A stretch of 20,971 nucleotides of DNA, taken from assembly GCA_026014495.1 (NCBI GenBank), contig JAOZIF010000133.1, positions 1-20,971 on the forward strand. The letters run 5' to 3'. This stretch comes from Candidatus Bathyarchaeum sp. (GTDB lineage: Archaea > Thermoproteota > Bathyarchaeia > Bathyarchaeales > Bathyarchaeaceae). The stretch's first letter is position 1; each line of letters opens with the position of its first letter. This document shows, in pieces, positions 11,286 to 16,908 of the stretch. The notes beneath the pieces are model-generated. The model saw only the letters and a program-made list of their open reading frames with translations. It did not search any database and was not told where the DNA came from. The translations under genes and the position numbers were made by a program.

Positions 11286-12371
11286 TTACCTAGTTATCTC
11301 TATCTTCAACATTTTTTCTAGCGTCTCTGGATTTTTTTTGAAGTGTTCGCGGACTGGTCTGAGTATTTCAGTTAAAGATTCAGTGACGCCGTTCTTCAGG
11401 TCTAGGGGATGTATTTTTCCTGCACTGTAAACGTTTGCAAGACTTTCGAAGCTTTCAAAGGTTTCAGGACCACCATATTTGGCTGGGCGTGGAATGGTCA
11501 ATTTGTCTGTTTCTGGATAAATTATTAGTTTAGCTAACTCAAGTATGGGATTGTTTTTCACAACTTTGGGAGGACAATATGCATTCTTTATTTTTGAGGC
11601 GATATCCTCTACGGAGTCGTGAACTAGTATGCTGCTTTGTGGAATGCTTTTGGACATTTTTGAGCTGATTTCAACATTTAATTCCGCATTTTCGTCAAAC
11701 ATTTTTTCTGCTGTTTGGGGACCTTGAAGTCCAATAAGTAAGGGAGTGTGAATGCAAACGGGCTTGTTCCATTTGAGCTTCTCTGCGGCGTCTCTTGCTA
11801 GCATGTGGGCTTTTCTTTGGTCTATGCCTGAGCAGGCTACGTCCATGTCCATCTCAAAGATGTCTGCAGCTTGCATACAGGGATAAAATACCCAAGCTGT
11901 TTCGATGTCGGTCATGCTTGTTTCGCGCCCCATAACAGGCAGGGCACGCCATGTTCGCTTAACTGAAACGCTTTTGGCTATGCGGACGACTTTTTCCCAA
12001 AATTCAACGTTTTCGGTTATCTCTGATGCCCAACGGAAATCTACTTTGTCTGGTGTTAATCCTAAGGCAATAAAGATTTGCTTGAGGTACTCTCCACAGG
12101 TGCGGATGTTTTCCATGTCTCCGCCTAATTTGTTGTTTATCCACGAGTGCCAGTCAGCTAGAAAGATTGTGAACTTGAATCCAGCGTTTACTAAATGTTT
12201 TATTTTTGCTGAGCACACCAACCCTATGCCTATGTGCAATAGTCCAGAGCATTCAAAACCCCAGTAAGCGTTGGGGCTGTTGTTTGTTTCTAGTAATGTG
12301 CGGACTTCTTGGGGGGTTACAACTTCCGCAGTGTTTCTCATGACAAGATCGATTCTTTTTTGCAGGTCCAA
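11286..12371 (-). CDS. tyrS: Tyrosine--tRNA ligase (archaeal type)
   Basis: AYWGFE.SG.LHIG (HIGH); YP.MQAADIF..D.D....G.DQRK.HMLARD; KMSKS; HPLDLK. TTG 12371 (MDLQKRIDLV) preferred (track start 12392). Confidence 0.97.
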   Translation of the reverse strand: MDLQKRIDLVMRNTAEVVTPQEVRTLLETNNSPNAYWGFECSGLLHIGIGLVCSAKIKHLVNAGFKFTIFLADWHSWINNKLGGDMENIRTCGEYLKQIFIALGLTPDKVDFRWASEITENVEFWEKVVRIAKSVSVKRTWRALPVMGRETSMTDIETAWVFYPCMQAADIFEMDMDVACSGIDQRKAHMLARDAAEKLKWNKPVCIHTPLLIGLQGPQTAEKMFDENAELNVEISSKMSKSIPQSSILVHDSVEDIASKIKNAYCPPKVVKNNPILELAKLIIYPETDKLTIPRPAKYGGPETFESFESLANVYSAGKIHPLDLKNGVTESLTEILRPVREHFKKNPETLEKMLKIEITR

Positions 12372-12475
12372 GTGAGATGCCCTCTTCCTCACTCATTTTA
12401 GTTTATCAACTTAAAAGTTCTTGTCACAAGCATATATCTTTACGAGAAAAGACGGGTTAGCTGCGTATTTTGATG

Positions 12476-12670
12476 TTAGTCATCAAACAAAAACAGGTCA
12501 TCTATTGTTGTTTTTAGAACTTTAGCAACATCATGTGCAAGATTTAGAGATGGATTGTATTTTCCTTTTTCCATGTAAAGTATTGTTTCTCTTCTTACTC
12601 CAACCTTTTTTGCAAGGTCTTCTTGGGTCAGGTTGTGTCTTGCTCGCAGCTCTTTGATTTTTGTTCTCAT
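12476..12670 (-). CDS. XRE/Cro-C1 HTH transcriptional regulator (~64 aa)
   Basis: [54 protein letters not shown]. The start overlaps the upstream stop (ATGATG). Confidence 0.93.
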
Positions 12671-13005
12671 CATAGGTCGCCTTTTCTGCTGTAATACCAA
12701 CTTAACAGGGCATTTGAGATACCAGAAACGAGCATTATTGCAATTATAGCCCATCCAGCGTCAAGTTCTGGCAAATCTAGAAACTCGGTTCCGAATATTA
12801 TGAACAACGCTAGTGATACCATGAAAGCTAAACTGATGTAGTAAGTTCCAATAGCTGCTCTTCCAGTGATCTTTATGGTGCGTTCATCTTTAGTAGGATA
12901 ACCTGCTTTTTTGTCTTTATGAATTTTCCATAAAACAAGCACTCCAACAAGGAGCACAAGTACTGCGTTCACGAGTAAGATTGTTGGCCACACAAAATCG
13001 GTCAT
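12670..13005 (-). CDS. DUF2178-family membrane protein
   Basis: Three hydrophobic segments; [19 protein letters not shown] motif; typical pairing with a downstream XRE gene. Confidence 0.75.
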
Positions 13006-13008
13006 TTT

Positions 13009-13206
13009 TTATGGTTCCTCCTTTTTCTTTCCTGCAAACGATACTGTGTTGCCAGTGCTTATCAGGCCTATTCCGGTTATGCCCACAACTGTTGCGATGC
13101 CTGTGTGGTCTGCGCCTATGATTGGTTCTCCAAAAGCCATCAAGTATGCGCCGACTAGACAGGTTGCTATTCCCAAGATGCGAATTATGTTGCTCCATTT
13201 TTTCAC
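13009..13206 (-). CDS. Small two-TM membrane protein of unknown function
   Basis: 65 aa with two hydrophobic helices. GGAGG SD before GTG. Lies 3 nt from the next gene. Confidence 0.7.
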   Translation of the reverse strand: MKKWSNIIRILGIATCLVGAYLMAFGEPIIGADHTGIATVVGITGIGLISTGNTVSFAGKKKEEP

Positions 13207-13249
13207 AGTTTTTCCTCCATTATTTATTTCTCACATTTTATGAGTTATT

Positions 13250-13290
13250 TCTAACTTCATGTTAGATATAGATAACATTTAGGTATTTAA
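13250..13290 (-). promoter_or_regulatory. Promoter with an overlapping palindromic operator for the XRE cassette
   Basis: TATA-like TTAAATA at 13290-13284 (minus strand). Inverted repeat TCTAAC-ttcat-GTTAGA at 13250-13266 covers the expected start site (~13261). Confidence 0.55.
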
Positions 13291-13462
13291 GGTTAACGGA
13301 AAACAACGCATCAAATGCATGTGTAAACTTTTTTTGAAAACAGGTGCAGTGCAGAAAAATTCAGAAAAAAGCTAGTTTTCAACAATCTACTGCTATTAGA
13401 CTCCTAATAGACTACAAATAGACAGCATGAAAGTGTGAAATTTTACACGTACCAAAGAAGTG

Positions 13463-13700
13463 AATGTCGCGGGCGTGTGTCCCACGCAACTAACTCTGCA
13501 TCCTCACAGCCGGAGCTAAAACGCTCTTCTCAGATGAGCTCTCTCAAACGTGGGTTAAGTTTTGCCCGCGCCCACCGTGTCCCATGCCTGGGTAAACCCT
13601 CCGTCAACGGTTAGGTGTAAAACACCATCCTCTGTCGAGTCCGTCGGCATGAGCCCGCATAAGGTTCCGGCAGGATTATGCTCCAGCCAACTATCATCGC
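13463..13700 (-). ncRNA. Structured GC-rich ncRNA, candidate two-hairpin box H/ACA guide RNA with a 5' extension
   Basis: About 56% GC by my count over 13461-13700, against AT-rich flanks. Stems: 13468-13474/13564-13570, 13481-13486/13549-13554, 13581-13588/13646-13653. ACA sits directly 3' of both lower stems (13467-13465, 13580-13578). Pockets match rRNA sequences recalled from memory. Upstream promoter-like motif and downstream pyrimidine run. Confidence 0.6.
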
Positions 13701-13725
13701 AACTAAAAAGACGTCTTAGGGGGAC

Positions 13726-13737
13726 ATTAAACGTTTC
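13726..13737 (-). promoter_or_regulatory. BRE+TATA-like element for the ncRNA
   Basis: GAAACGTTTAAT resembles the AAAACCTTTAAA elements upstream of trpS (~18184-18173) and pheS (~16989-16978). Confidence 0.45.
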
Positions 13738-13747
13738 TATTCAAGCA

Positions 13748-15415
13748 CTACTTGTTTTTGTCTATAATTTTTTGGAGGTCTATCTCGAATGCGCCTGTTG
13801 GATTTTCCAACTCGAAGTTGTTAAGTAATTCTGGGTGAATTTCGCCAACAACACCAAGCGTCATATCATTTAATGAAATGGTGGCGGCTCTTCCCTGTAG
13901 AAAACTTGGATTATTTGTCTCGGTTACGGTCCAGTTTTCAAAGCCTAAATTAGTCAGCAATGATTCGAGAACAGATTTTATTTCCGTGAAGTTGGCTGTT
14001 GGATGGGATGAAACTGCTGCAAGGTGTATTCTTCGTTCAGTATATGTTTCAGAGTTGTCATCGAGCTTGATTACGTCGGAGACTTCGAACATTCTTTGTG
14101 GAAAGACATGGTGTTTACTGACTGCCAAGTTTTTCATTAGGCTAGGCAACAAATCGTTTCTTATTATGGAGTAATCTGTAGAAACAGGGTTCGCCAAAGT
14201 CACAAGCCCTTCAGGTTTTTGTAGCATCTTGTAGTAGTTGTCATCCTCGTTGGTGAGAACAAAGTTTAGGGCTTCTGTAAATCCTAAACCAATCATTATC
14301 TGACGCACAGCAGTGGTTATCTCGGTAACTATGTGCTTTTTGCCTGTCGTTACTGTTGCTGGTTTTGTGGGTTCCAACCTGAAAATTCCGTAGCCAACAG
14401 CAACTTCTTCAACAAGGTCAATCTCGTGCAGTATATCTGTGCGGTAGGCGGGAATTGTGACATCTAAAACTCCTTTTTCAACAATTTTTGCGTCTAGCCT
14501 AGACTTTTGCAATGCATCTATGGTTTGTTTTTCTGAAAAATCTAGCCCTAAGCGCATGTTAGAGAAATCTACATTCAAAGTCATTTTTTGAGGCGTAAGG
14601 TCTGGAGTAACCAAAACATGGTCAGAGTATGTTACATTAACAGTTTCTATGGTGCCGCCCATGTCTGCAAGCGCTGTAACTAGAACGTTTAAACTTCGTT
14701 GCACAGCATTTAGGTCTGTTCCTGTAACTTCAATGAAAAGGTCGTGTGTATTTTCGTCTACTTTTGTTAATTCACCATTAATTATTGGGGGAAACGAAAG
14801 AATTTGACCTTTACAATCAACAACCAATGGATATCTTGGTGCCCAATCAACTTGACTTTTGTAAGCTATACCTTTTTCGTGCTTTTCCAAAACGTCCTGT
14901 GGGGTCATTTCTTCTGTTTTGTCTAAGGGCACAAACTTAACACCATCTGGAGCGCACGTAACGTACGAGAATGGGGGCGTGACTGCGTCAAGTTTGTGAA
15001 CTCCAATTGAGGCTTTTTTTCGGTCTCTGCCAATCATCCAATGCAGAGCCTCTTGTAGCTCCATAAGCTCGCGGATAGTATCAGAGTCAATTTTTAGTCC
15101 ACGAACAGTAGCACAAACAATGTAGGGGCGCACTTGTGCTACGCTTTTGTCCACTGTTAATGTGATATTTCCTTGTTTGACATCATATTTGGGTAATCCA
15201 GTTTCCCAGCCCATAAGCCCACAGAACGCTCTGGCAACTCCAGCAATGCTAGAAAAATCTACACGATTTGGGTTATACTCAATTTTCACGGAATCTTGTG
15301 CAACATCTTCTATGTCTGTTCCCAGCCACGGAAGCTGTTTTGCCATATCTTCCACTGATATGTTACGTCCAACATAGGACGAGAAACGTTCTTTGTCTAA
15401 GGTTATTGTTGGCAC
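13748..15415 (-). CDS. pheT: Phenylalanine--tRNA ligase beta subunit (archaeal type)
   Basis: EYNPNR.D; LQEALH..IGRDRKKASIGVH; FPPIING; IPAYRTDILHEIDLVEEVAVGYG; GEIHP. GTG 15415 preferred (track start 15436). Confidence 0.97.
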   Translation of the reverse strand: MPTITLDKERFSSYVGRNISVEDMAKQLPWLGTDIEDVAQDSVKIEYNPNRVDFSSIAGVARAFCGLMGWETGLPKYDVKQGNITLTVDKSVAQVRPYIVCATVRGLKIDSDTIRELMELQEALHWMIGRDRKKASIGVHKLDAVTPPFSYVTCAPDGVKFVPLDKTEEMTPQDVLEKHEKGIAYKSQVDWAPRYPLVVDCKGQILSFPPIINGELTKVDENTHDLFIEVTGTDLNAVQRSLNVLVTALADMGGTIETVNVTYSDHVLVTPDLTPQKMTLNVDFSNMRLGLDFSEKQTIDALQKSRLDAKIVEKGVLDVTIPAYRTDILHEIDLVEEVAVGYGIFRLEPTKPATVTTGKKHIVTEITTAVRQIMIGLGFTEALNFVLTNEDDNYYKMLQKPEGLVTLANPVSTDYSIIRNDLLPSLMKNLAVSKHHVFPQRMFEVSDVIKLDDNSETYTERRIHLAAVSSHPTANFTEIKSVLESLLTNLGFENWTVTETNNPSFLQGRAATISLNDMTLGVVGEIHPELLNNFELENPTGAFEIDLQKIIDKNK

Positions 15416-16908
15416 ACTGGATTCCTCCTTATCCAACCTAAATCGTTCTTGTACAACAATCTAATGTCTTCAATTCCAAGCTTTAGAAGAATCAAACGCT
15501 CCAAGCCTCCACCCCACGCCAAAACAGGATGCTTCACGCCAAGAGGCGCCAAAACTTCTGGACGAAATATTCCCATACCACAAAGCTCAACCCAATTTTT
15601 CAGTTCTGGAACATAAACAGTAGACTGCAACGAGGGCTCGGTATACGGGAAGTAGCTAGGCCAGAACTGAACCTTTTCTAACCCAAGTTTTTTGTAAAAC
15701 TCTTTAAGGGTTCCCATAAGGTCACGCAGGGTCACCTTACAGTCCATAATTATTCCTTCAATTTGATGGAACTCTGCAAGATGCTTGTAATCCAATTTTT
15801 CGTTGCGGTAAACGCGGTCAACAGAGAATACTTTAACGGGAGGCTCCTTGTGTTCTGTCAAGTAACGAATTGTTGTAGCTGTTGTGTGAGTTCTGAGCAC
15901 AAGTTTCTTGGCTTCCTGTGGACTCCATTTATATTCCCATCCTCTAGAACCAGTAGTCCAGCCATTTTCATGAGTCGCTGCAACCGCATCAACAACACCT
16001 TTTTTGGGTAACTTACCCTGTTTTGGGTTAGCCAAATAAAAAGTGTCCACCATGTCCCGTGCTGGGTGGTCCTGAGGCTGAAACAGTGCATCAAAATTCC
16101 AGAATGCAGTTTCAACCATATCACCTCGAATCTCAGTGAAGCCCATCTCTAGGAATATTTCTTTGACCTGCTGAATTATCTGCTGAACAGGATGAATCTT
16201 CCCAGGAAAACTTACTGGACCGGGCGCAGTCACGTCGAAGCGTCTTAGTTTTACGTTTCGCCAGTTTCCTGTTCGGATAAGCTCTGGGGTTAGCTGGCTA
16301 ACTTCTTGCTGAACAATGATTCCTTGTTTAACAAGAGCCCAGCCATCGTCAGTTAATTCTAGTTCACGAAGGGTTTTCTCTTCGATTTCGACTAGTTTTC
16401 GGCCTTTCAAGTTTGGTATGCTTTTTTGTAGTTCTAAACTTAAGTCCTCGACGATTAGAGGAGTTTTTTTGGTTAAAAGTTGAATGAGTTTTTCATCATC
16501 TCCAAACGGGGGAGTCTTTAGAGGGTTTAGGTTTCCCTGTTTTATGGTTGCCCAGCCTTTGCGGTTAAGCCAACCTAAAGCAACGGAAACAAACTTTTTT
16601 TCTAAACCTGCGTCTTCGATAACACTATTAACGGCAGCGTCTCCACCAAGCTTTGCCAAAGAGTCTATCAGGCGTCTTTCTGGAAGACCGTGCTGTGCAT
16701 GGTAGCTGCCTTCTTCACTTAATGAAACTAGGGTCTGTTTTTGTTCATGAGTTACGATTAACTTATCTTCTGTTAGAGAAAGCACACCTCTCATAACAGC
16801 AGCGTGAGCCAACCCGCTAACGTCAACTATCTGCTCAACAGATGCTTTTCCTTTCAACTGTTCTAGGGCAAGTAATGTTTTTTGTTCATTTTCCCGAAGT
16901 TCAGGCAC
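15403..16908 (-). CDS. pheS: Phenylalanine--tRNA ligase alpha subunit (archaeal long form)
   Basis: FWNFDALFQPQDHPARD..DTFY; LRTHTT; RVYRNE..D..HLAEFHQIEG; YFPYTEPS; GMGIFRPE; WGGGLERL. Confidence 0.98.
   Translation of the reverse strand: MPELRENEQKTLLALEQLKGKASVEQIVDVSGLAHAAVMRGVLSLTEDKLIVTHEQKQTLVSLSEEGSYHAQHGLPERRLIDSLAKLGGDAAVNSVIEDAGLEKKFVSVALGWLNRKGWATIKQGNLNPLKTPPFGDDEKLIQLLTKKTPLIVEDLSLELQKSIPNLKGRKLVEIEEKTLRELELTDDGWALVKQGIIVQQEVSQLTPELIRTGNWRNVKLRRFDVTAPGPVSFPGKIHPVQQIIQQVKEIFLEMGFTEIRGDMVETAFWNFDALFQPQDHPARDMVDTFYLANPKQGKLPKKGVVDAVAATHENGWTTGSRGWEYKWSPQEAKKLVLRTHTTATTIRYLTEHKEPPVKVFSVDRVYRNEKLDYKHLAEFHQIEGIIMDCKVTLRDLMGTLKEFYKKLGLEKVQFWPSYFPYTEPSLQSTVYVPELKNWVELCGMGIFRPEVLAPLGVKHPVLAWGGGLERLILLKLGIEDIRLLYKNDLGWIRRNPVCQQ

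What the first reader, a model, noticed from the sequence alone, without database searches (positions are those of the whole stretch)
13578..13653. 5' hairpin pocket matches the 23S peptidyl-transferase centre (CUGGGU-UU-AGACCGUCG)
Seen (target sense): CTGGGT (13588-13593) and AGTCCGTCG (13638-13646) sit on opposite sides of the pocket above an 8-bp stem ending in ACA. From memory, archaeal 23S has GAGCUGGGUUUAGACCGUCGUG, giving 6/6 plus 8/9 pairs with two unpaired U (E. coli U2585/U2586). Known: U2585 is a core PTC base, and pseudouridine at the 2586 equivalent is reported in haloarchaea. A guide for this site in this lineage would be notable. Caveats: the spacing to ACA is 13-14 nt, and the upper stem competes with the guide.
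Basis: partly seen in the sequence, partly recalled or inferred. Interest (0 to 1): 0.7.

Follow-up and report, generated by a model that had tools for sequence, protein, structure and literature searches.

The report
H/ACA guide RNA for ribosome's catalytic centre
The flagged hairpin is the first half of an unannotated, widely conserved archaeal guide RNA whose conserved loop strands match the peptidyl-transferase centre of 23S rRNA, so it most likely directs a pseudouridine there, as a known haloarchaeal guide does.

Summary
[quoted passage not shown] It is the 5' hairpin of a ~240-nt RNA (about 13703-13463) with its own promoter. The lineage is Bathyarchaeia.

The RNA occurs in 133 of 151 sampled Bathyarchaeia genomes and in other Thermoproteota, including AmoA-positive genomes. 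Rfam has no match.

The best-conserved unpaired bases are GACGG (13645-13641) and ACCCA (13593-13589). They pair with CCGUC and UGGGU on either side of UUAGA in 23S (E. coli 2580-2594).

The target therefore has 4-5 unpaired bases, not two. Spacing to ACA favours U2586 over U2585.

The 3' hairpin matches helix 69 (U1915/U1917). The two hairpins thus hit the same pair of sites as Haloferax sR-h45. Cbf5, Nop10, Gar1 and L7Ae are all encoded. No modification or expression data could be obtained.

The scan had flagged this RNA in other genomes as unclassified or RNase P-like. It is not RNase P RNA.

Verdict: a new member of a known kind, with atypical features.

The parts
13726..13732 (-). TATA-like box GUUUAAU, about 26 nt upstream of the conserved RNA 5' end
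   Evidence: Read directly. A similar (A)AC/GNUUUAAU box lies 25-30 nt upstream of the conserved GGCGAUGA start in many families. Inferred promoter; no transcript data.
13680..13700 (-). 5' K-turn hairpin: GC, bulge GAU, GA, loop, GA, GC
   Evidence: The motif GGC-RAU-GA...(U/C)GA-GCC recurs at the RNA 5' end across families. Assigned as a K-turn from sequence only.
13668..13674 (-). P0 5' strand CCUGCCG. It pairs with 13577-13571 and encloses hairpin 1 together with its ACA.
   Evidence: 7 pairs, 100% paired in 30 sequences, with G-U, G-C and A-U exchanges (helix 1). RNAalifold predicts the same helix.
13647..13653 (-). Hairpin 1 lower stem P1, 5' strand CUCAUGC
   Evidence: Five of these seven pairs show compensatory changes on both sides; the sixth such pair of helix 2 is the extra 13646:13588 pair (helix 2).
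13641..13646 (-). Pocket 5' strand (PS1) C-GACGG. GACGG pairs with 23S CCGUC (E. coli 2590-2594). C13646 adds G2595 in this genome.
   Evidence: GACGG is 90/100/100/100/95% conserved in 41 class-wide sequences; 13646 is C in only 27%. Target match.
13633..13640 (-). Upper stem P2, 5' strand.
   Evidence: Pairs 13638:13598 and 13637:13599 covary. Pair 13640:13596 shows A-U, C-G and G-U class-wide. The distal G:A pair to the P2 base is 10 positions.
13604..13632 (-). K-turn module: GA 13632-13631, C-stem GG/CC (13630-29 with 13610-09) plus apical hairpin, bulge GUU 13608-06, GA 13605-04
   Evidence: A13631 100%, G13632 88%, U13606 98%, G13605 98%, A13604 95%. C-stem pairs covary (helices 4-5).
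13596..13603 (-). Upper stem P2, 3' strand
   Evidence: helix 3.
13588..13595 (-). Pocket 3' strand (PS2) UU-ACCCA-G. ACCCA(G) pairs with 23S (C)UGGGU (E. coli 2579-2584). U13594 lies opposite U2585 and U13595 opposite U2586.
   Evidence: ACCCA is 100/98/100/100/100% conserved; 13588 is G in 49%; 13594 is U in 85% and A in 10%. Outside Bathyarchaeia many sequences read UAACCCA.
13581..13587 (-). Lower stem P1, 3' strand GCAUGGG
   Evidence: helix 2.
13578..13580 (-). ACA box of hairpin 1
   Evidence: A, C and A are each present in 41 of 41 sequences.
13571..13577 (-). P0 3' strand CGGUGGG, running straight into the outer helix of hairpin 2
   Evidence: helix 1.
13465..13570 (-). Hairpin 2 domain: outer helix CGCGGGC/GCCCGCG (13570-64 with 13474-68); lower stem CCCACG/CGUGGG (13554-49 with 13486-81); pocket UUUGAGAGAG (13548-39) and AGUUAGUUG (13495-87); upper stem CUCAUCU/GGAUG(C)AG; K-turn (GA 13531-30, bulge UGU 13508-06, GA 13505-04); ACA 13480-78; terminal ACA 13467-65
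   Evidence: Helices 6-9 covary. The pocket matches 23S helix 69, UAACU-CUGA-CUCUCUUAAG, 5+10 bp; 10 of 300 shuffles reach that score.

Best explanation
Bases 13653-13578 (minus strand) are the 5' hairpin of a ~240-nt double-hairpin box H/ACA guide RNA of a Bathyarchaeia archaeon.

Proposed mechanism (inferred, by analogy with solved and tested archaeal H/ACA RNPs):
- L7Ae binds the K-turn.
- The two loop strands pair with nascent 23S rRNA. ACCCA(G) pairs with (C)UGGGU, E. coli 2579-2584. (C)GACGG pairs with CCGUC(G), E. coli 2590-2595.
- This presents the unpaired UUAGA (2585-2589) to the Cbf5 active site.
- The uridine converted to pseudouridine is most likely U2586, the site modified in haloarchaea. 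U2585 is the alternative.

The 3' hairpin of the same RNA is predicted to guide helix 69 U1915/U1917. The RNA is therefore the functional counterpart of Haloferax volcanii sR-h45.

Shown here: the structure, its conservation, the complementarity, and the presence of the protein genes. Inferred: RNP assembly, catalysis, and which U is modified.
For: 1. Structure. In 30 order-level homologs, 51 pairs are 95.2% paired, against 37-46% when the partners are slid. 24 pairs have compensatory changes, and 0 of 500 shuffles reach this. RNAalifold finds the same helices on its own.

2. H/ACA hallmarks in hairpin 1:
- ACA is present in 41 of 41 sequences, directly 3' of a 7-bp covarying stem.
- The K-turn GA, UGA and L3 U are 88-100% conserved.
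- The distal G:A pair to the P2 base is 10 positions, against the published 9-10 (PMC7075261).

3. Guide cores. GACGG and ACCCA are the most conserved unpaired bases, while the flanking stems vary and covary. Both are complementary to a 23S stretch that was identical from UGGGU onward in all seven 23S sequences read: one same-genus, one other Bathyarchaeia, and five from other Thermoproteota (one search adds a second same-genus 23S).

4. Best rRNA hit. The PTC site ranks first, and 6 of 400 shuffled guides match its score.

5. Spacing. P1b (7 nt) plus paired PS2 gives 14 nt if U2586 is the target. Published functional ranges are 14-15 nt (PMC2377435) and 15+/-1 nt. In many non-Bathyarchaeia homologs and some Bathyarchaeia, position 13594 is A. 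This pairs with U2585 and leaves U2586 as the first unpaired U.

6. Hairpin 2 matches helix 69 U1915/U1917. That is the same two targets, in the same 5'-to-3' order, as sR-h45: SL1 gives psi2605 and SL2 gives psi1940/1942.

7. Proteins. Cbf5 (442.8 bits), Nop10, Gar1 and L7Ae are all encoded in this MAG.

8. Distribution. The RNA is in 133 of 151 sampled Bathyarchaeia genomes and 73 of 79 genera. It is in 47 of 131 other Thermoproteota sampled.
Against: - No pseudouridine map, RNA-seq or Cbf5-binding data exist for this lineage.
- With the covariation-supported upper stem, 4-5 target bases stay unpaired. The canonical number is 2. Three (UNN) and four (UNUN) are the published extremes.
- The target is invariant, so guide-target covariation cannot be seen. 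The one variable target base, E. coli 2579 (C, A or U), does not covary with 13588.
- Sulfolobus islandicus, the only Thermoproteota with a full map, has no pseudouridine at this site.
- The shuffle test is only moderately strong (p about 0.015 under a permissive search).
- In family f17, PS2 can pair across all three Us, which blurs which base is the target.
Confidence: 0.66

Rival explanations
1. Hairpin 1 is a real H/ACA guide, but its functional target is elsewhere. The best canonical alternative is 23S helix 71, GGGUAAG-UU-CCG (E. coli U1955/U1956). It has only UN unpaired, paired by UUUACCC (13596-13590) and CGG (13643-13641). The target could also be an RNA that I did not scan.
For: The scan found this site with 7+3 bp and a canonical 2-nt gap. 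U13594 and U13595, which are unpaired in the PTC model, are still 85% and 73% conserved. Archaeal guides can serve several sites (sR435 serves eight).
Against: - Only 3 bp form on the 5' strand, so this pairing does not explain why A13644 (100%), G13645 (90%) and A13589 (100%) are conserved.
- 13594, 13595 and 13596 change in several lineages (UCAACCC, UUCACCC, CUUACCC), which breaks this pairing.
- Spacing to ACA would be 16 nt.
- I know of no pseudouridine reported at this position (from memory).
- No tRNA target was found.
Confidence: 0.1
2. The RNP binds the PTC strand but does not modify it. It would act as an assembly chaperone that holds E. coli 2579-2595 open during 50S maturation, like non-modifying H/ACA snoRNAs in eukaryotes.
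For: The wide unpaired stretch of 4-5 nt departs from the geometry known to support catalysis. The extra helix P0 closes directly behind the ACA. The sequence is conserved very strongly, and the target is a strand that must fold late.
Against: - The ACA, the K-turn and the 9-10 position upper stem are all kept as in catalytic guides.
- Spacing for U2586 is in the functional range.
- The haloarchaeal counterpart does modify this very base.
- Hairpin 2 has the same wide pocket on helix 69, where an unpaired UNUN is known to be modified.
Confidence: 0.12
3. It is not an H/ACA RNA at all but another structured RNA, for example a reduced RNase P-like RNA as an earlier scan note suggested for a relative. 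The match to 23S would then be chance.
For: Rfam has no H/ACA hit. No RNase P RNA was found in this MAG. The RNA is larger and more closed than classic archaeal H/ACA RNAs.
Against: - Same-genus genomes carry a canonical archaeal RNase P RNA (219-220 bits) at another locus next to 23S, as well as this RNA.
- Both hairpins independently show stem, pocket, stem, K-turn and ANA at the right distances.
- Both pockets match known pseudouridylation sites of one known guide.
Confidence: 0.03

Closest known systems
Haloferax volcanii sR-h45, 5' stem-loop SL1 (guide for 23S psi2605 = E. coli U2586; PMC7075261)
   Same: Both are double-hairpin H/ACA RNAs. The 5' hairpin targets the UUU of the PTC strand through a 3' pocket strand that reads (A)ACCC. 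The 3' hairpin targets helix 69 U1915/U1917 with several unpaired bases. Both have K-turns and an ANA after hairpin 1. Both leave one or two unpaired guide bases at the top of the 3' pocket strand.
   Different: - sR-h45 SL1 pairs U2585, leaves only UA unpaired, and uses a 3-bp 5' strand directly after UA. Here the 5' strand is GACGG, pairing 2590-2594 and skipping (A)GA. In most Bathyarchaeia a U faces U2585.
- sR-h45 has a 56-nt spacer with an H box AUAGCUA. Here there is no spacer. Helix P0 encloses hairpin 1 plus its ACA and abuts an outer helix around hairpin 2. A third K-turn hairpin sits at the 5' end.
Pyrococcus abyssi Pab35, Pab160 and Pab91 (PMC2377435)
   Same: These are classic archaeal H/ACA guides acting on the same 23S strand. 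They supply the rules used here: upper helix 5-6 bp, ANA-to-U distance 14-15 nt, 3' guide strand dominant, UNN tolerated.
   Different: They target psi2672 and psi2685 in P. abyssi numbering. By my offset inference of +92 these are E. coli 2580 and 2593, both of which are paired to the guide here. No pseudouridine at the 2585/2586 equivalents was reported in P. abyssi.
Sulfolobus islandicus classic H/ACA RNAs sR435 and sR115 (PMC11077068)
   Same: Same phylum. They have the same stem, pocket, K-turn stem and ACA design and the same protein set. The cbf5 gene is also split by an intron.
   Different: They are single hairpins, and none targets E. coli 2585/2586. Helix 69 there is served by an atypical guide that lacks the lower stem and ACA.

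Membership tests
Archaeal box H/ACA guide sRNA | Hairpin made of lower stem, large internal loop (pocket) and upper stem | tested here: met
   Helices 2-5 covary, and RNAalifold agrees.
Archaeal box H/ACA guide sRNA | ACA/ANA trinucleotide directly 3' of the lower stem | tested here: met
   ACA at 13580-13578 is present in 41 of 41 class-wide homologs.
Archaeal box H/ACA guide sRNA | K-turn or K-loop (tandem sheared G:A, 3-nt bulge) in the upper stem, with the distal G:A 9-10 positions from the pocket | tested here: met
   GA 13632-31 and U-GA 13606-04 are 88-100% conserved, and the C-stem covaries. The count to the P2 base (13640:13596) is 10. This is a sequence-level test only; L7Ae binding was not tested.
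Archaeal box H/ACA guide sRNA | Target U 14-16 nt from ACA | tested here: inconclusive
   The distance is 13 nt for U2585 and 14 nt for U2586 (direct count), against published ranges. The feature is met only if U2586 is the target.
Archaeal box H/ACA guide sRNA | Two pocket strands complementary to the target on either side of an unpaired U-N | tested here: inconclusive
   Complementarity of 5+5 bp (conserved) to 6+6 bp (this genome) to the 23S PTC was found. However, 4-5 target bases stay unpaired. UNN and UNUN are the published extremes.
Archaeal box H/ACA guide sRNA | Partner proteins Cbf5, Nop10, Gar1 and L7Ae are present | tested here: met
   The cbf5 frame needs removal of a 21-nt insert that carries a TAA.
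Archaeal box H/ACA guide sRNA | Binds Cbf5 and directs pseudouridine formation | not testable with these tools
sR-h45-type dual guide (Halobacteria) | 5' hairpin targets E. coli 2586 and 3' hairpin targets E. coli 1915/1917 | tested here: met
   Met by predicted pairing only, compared.
sR-h45-type dual guide (Halobacteria) | Long spacer with H box AUAGCUA between the hairpins; sequence homology | tested here: not met
   There is no spacer: the P0 3' strand abuts the outer helix of hairpin 2. Homology to the sR-h45 sequence was not tested.
Archaeal RNase P RNA | Match to the RNase P covariance model and conserved CR regions | tested here: not met
   The window has no Rfam hit. Canonical RNase P RNA lies elsewhere in same-genus genomes that also carry this RNA.

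The most novel reading that the evidence does not exclude
This could be an ancient dual guide RNA, shared by Thermoproteota (Bathyarchaeia, ammonia oxidisers and other classes) and Halobacteria, that couples pseudouridylation of helix 69 and of the PTC strand. In most Bathyarchaeia a U, not an A, faces U2585. There the first unpaired U would be U2585 itself, a core catalytic-centre base not known to be modified in any organism. Both pockets hold 4-5 unpaired target bases, and each ACA is boxed in by an extra helix. Together these would define a new working geometry for H/ACA RNPs.
Probability: 0.25. Interest if true: 0.7.

Novelty: new member of a known kind. Interest (0 to 1): 0.5.

Why it matters
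- It gives a name and a testable function to a conserved ~240-nt RNA. The RNA is present in most Bathyarchaeia and in other Thermoproteota, is absent from Rfam, and was flagged elsewhere in this scan as unclassified.
- It predicts pseudouridines at the peptidyl-transferase centre (E. coli 2586 or 2585) and in helix 69 for lineages with no modification data.
- It suggests that the haloarchaeal pairing of these two targets in one RNA is old rather than a haloarchaeal peculiarity.
- Because AmoA-positive relatives carry the hairpin, the prediction can be tested in cultured ammonia oxidisers.
- The wide pockets and the closed architecture would extend the rules used to predict H/ACA targets.

Tried and rejected
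- Rfam, at gathering thresholds and at E<=10 over 13200-13900, gave nothing relevant.
- A single-sequence MFE fold is not informative (z = -0.56). Only comparative analysis resolves the structure.
- Helix 71 as the main target is rejected on the conservation pattern.
- tRNA targets: none found.
- RNase P identity is rejected.
- The other first-reader note, that the outer loop of hairpin 2 guides 16S GUGUCC-UG-UUAAGU, is probably chance. The match exists in a same-genus 16S. But the ACUUAA strand is kept in only 1 of 23 same-genus sequences, and the pairing needs two bases of a covarying stem.
- Guide-target covariation at E. coli 2579 versus 13588: none seen.
- The 23S of the GACGAA-variant lineages (G116, G124) is not assembled, so that test failed.
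- Literature searches found no paper on H/ACA RNAs in Bathyarchaeota or Thaumarchaeota in the held library.

Full report
**What is in the sequence**

The finding's coordinates are exact. On the minus strand the RNA reads as follows:
- CUCAUGC(C) at 13653-13646.
- A loop strand GACGG.
- An upper stem.
- GA, then a short C-stem with an apical hairpin.
- A GUU bulge, then GA.
- The returning upper stem.
- The loop strand UUACCCA(G).
- (G)GCAUGGG at 13588-13581, then ACA at 13580-13578.

The region is a GC-rich island (50-55% GC against about 40%) with no credible ORF. It lies just downstream of pheT on the same strand.

**Lineage and target**

Record titles of matching contigs show the lineage is Bathyarchaeia. 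The MAG has no rRNA.

**The RNA as a whole**

BLAST found homologs in 22 of 24 same-genus genomes and in most families of the order.

An alignment of 30 sequences supports a 51-pair structure:
- 95.2% of cells are paired, against 37-46% with slid partners.
- 24 pairs show compensatory changes.
- 0 of 500 shuffles reach the observed values.

RNAalifold recovers the same helices on its own.

The architecture, from 5' to 3', is:
- A K-turn hairpin (13700-13680).
- Helix P0 (13674-68 with 13577-71), which encloses a mini-hairpin and hairpin 1 with its ACA.
- Immediately after, an outer helix (13570-64 with 13474-68), which encloses hairpin 2 with its own ACA (13480-78).
- A terminal ANA.

A TATA-like box lies about 26 nt upstream of the conserved 5' end here and in many families.

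A covariance model of the RNA hits 133 of 151 sampled Bathyarchaeia genomes (73 of 79 genera). It also hits 47 of 131 sampled genomes of other Thermoproteota classes. These include a family whose members encode AmoA.

**Hairpin 1 as an H/ACA unit**

In 41 class-wide sequences found with the whole-RNA model:
- ACA is invariant.
- The K-turn bases are 88-100% conserved.
- The lower stem varies and covaries.
- The most conserved unpaired bases are GACGG (13645-41: 90/100/100/100/95%) and ACCCA (13593-89: 100/98/100/100/100%).

[quoted passage not shown] The published range is 9-10 (PMC7075261).

Cbf5, Nop10, Gar1 and L7Ae are all encoded in the MAG.

**The target**

I scanned a same-genus 16S and 23S with the pocket strands. 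The top hit was CUGGGU-UUAGA-CCGUCG, 6+6 bp. Six of 400 shuffled guide pairs reach that score.

The 23S stretch from UGGGU onward is identical in all seven 23S sequences read: one same-genus, one other Bathyarchaeia, and five from other Thermoproteota. One search adds a second same-genus 23S.

- Pair 13638:13598 is C-G, U-G or U-A in the order-level alignment.
- Class-wide, 13638 is U in 19 and C in 22 sequences, although A2587 of the target never changes.
- Pair 13640:13596 shows A-U, C-G and G-U.
- These bases are therefore upper stem.

The end pairs at 13646 and 13588 are specific to some lineages. The conserved interaction is 5+5 bp around UUAGA.

**Which U is the target**

The lower-stem 3' strand (7 nt) plus the paired part of the 3' pocket strand (6 nt) gives 13 nt for U2585 and 14 nt for U2586. 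Functional archaeal guides have 14-15 nt (PMC2377435) or 15+/-1 nt.

In three same-genus species, some other Bathyarchaeia and many non-Bathyarchaeia homologs, 13594 is A. This pairs with U2585 and leaves U2586 as the first unpaired U.

Both points favour U2586, which is the base modified in Haloferax and Haloarcula. In the majority, where a U faces U2585, the rule that 'the most 5' unpaired U is modified' would point to U2585. This remains open.

**Context that strengthens the reading**

The inner pocket of hairpin 2 (UUUGAGAGAG and AGUUAGUUG) matches 23S helix 69, UAACU-CUGA-CUCUCUUAAG, 5+10 bp. This places U1915 and U1917 in the unpaired part.

Haloferax sR-h45 does exactly this pair of jobs in the same order. 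Its SL1 gives psi2605 (E. coli 2586) and its SL2 gives psi1940/1942 in an unpaired UNUN.

Hairpin 2 also leaves 4-5 target bases unpaired. The wide pocket is therefore a trait of the family, not a defect of hairpin 1.

**Rivals**

- A canonical-looking site in helix 71 (GGGUAAG-UU-CCG) fails to explain the conservation of A13644, G13645 and A13589. It is also broken by natural variation at 13594-96.
- A non-catalytic chaperone role cannot be excluded.
- RNase P identity, suggested by an earlier scan note for a relative, is excluded. Same-genus genomes have a canonical RNase P RNA next to 23S as well as this RNA.

**Limits**

- No expression or modification data could be obtained.
- Guide-target covariation is impossible for an invariant target.
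- Sulfolobus islandicus lacks this pseudouridine.
- The call that the RNA guides pseudouridylation of the PTC strand therefore rests on structure, conservation, complementarity and the parallel with sR-h45.

**Earlier scan notes**

The same RNA was noted downstream of pheT in other genomes as unclassified (e1-4673325) and as RNase P-like (e1-4765882).

Noticed in passing
window 13478-13554 (minus strand): The inner pocket of hairpin 2 (UUUGAGAGAG and AGUUAGUUG) is complementary to 23S helix 69, UAACU-CUGA-CUCUCUUAAG. This predicts a guide for E. coli U1915/U1917. GAGAGAG and GUU.G are invariant in 30 homologs.
   Followed up: partly
However, the ACUUAA strand is kept in only 1 of 23 same-genus sequences, so the match is probably chance.
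   Followed up: yes
window 13680-13700 (minus strand): A third K-turn-like hairpin sits at the RNA 5' end (GC-GAU-GA-loop-GA-GC). It is conserved as GGCGAUGA...UGAGCC in many families. It resembles a box C/D kink-turn but has no guide region. Its role is unknown, perhaps an L7Ae-bound end cap.
   Followed up: partly
window 13571-13577 with 13668-13674; 13564-13570 with 13468-13474: Each H/ACA hairpin, together with its ACA, is enclosed by an extra covarying helix. The two helices abut without a spacer. This is unusual for H/ACA RNAs, where the ACA is normally followed by a free tail or a hinge.
   Followed up: partly
L220:841-861 (G000 contig C93, minus strand): The cbf5 frame is interrupted by a 21-nt insert that carries an in-frame TAA, exactly at the catalytic GGTL-D-PKVTG motif. 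Removing it restores GAU (Asp). It looks like the short archaeal intron known in crenarchaeal cbf5.
   Followed up: partly
L254 (G005:C1:898601-898893) and L253: In same-genus genomes the RNase P RNA gene lies about 300 nt upstream of 23S on the opposite strand. In this MAG both are missing, probably lost with the unassembled rRNA locus.
   Followed up: no
L234, L235, L240 (AmoA-positive genomes G198, G233, G240): Ammonia-oxidiser genomes carry a hairpin-1 homolog with the same GACGG and ACCCAG pocket strands, K-turn and ACA. The second hairpin there has different pocket strands although its helix 69 sequence is identical, so it may have another target.
   Followed up: partly
window 11286-15436: The RNA sits between pheT (13748-15436) and a class I Trp/Tyr-type tRNA synthetase gene (11286-12392). 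A small XRE-type HTH gene and a DUF2178 membrane protein lie in between. Earlier notes report the same pheT-RNA-tyrS neighbourhood in other genomes.
   Followed up: no
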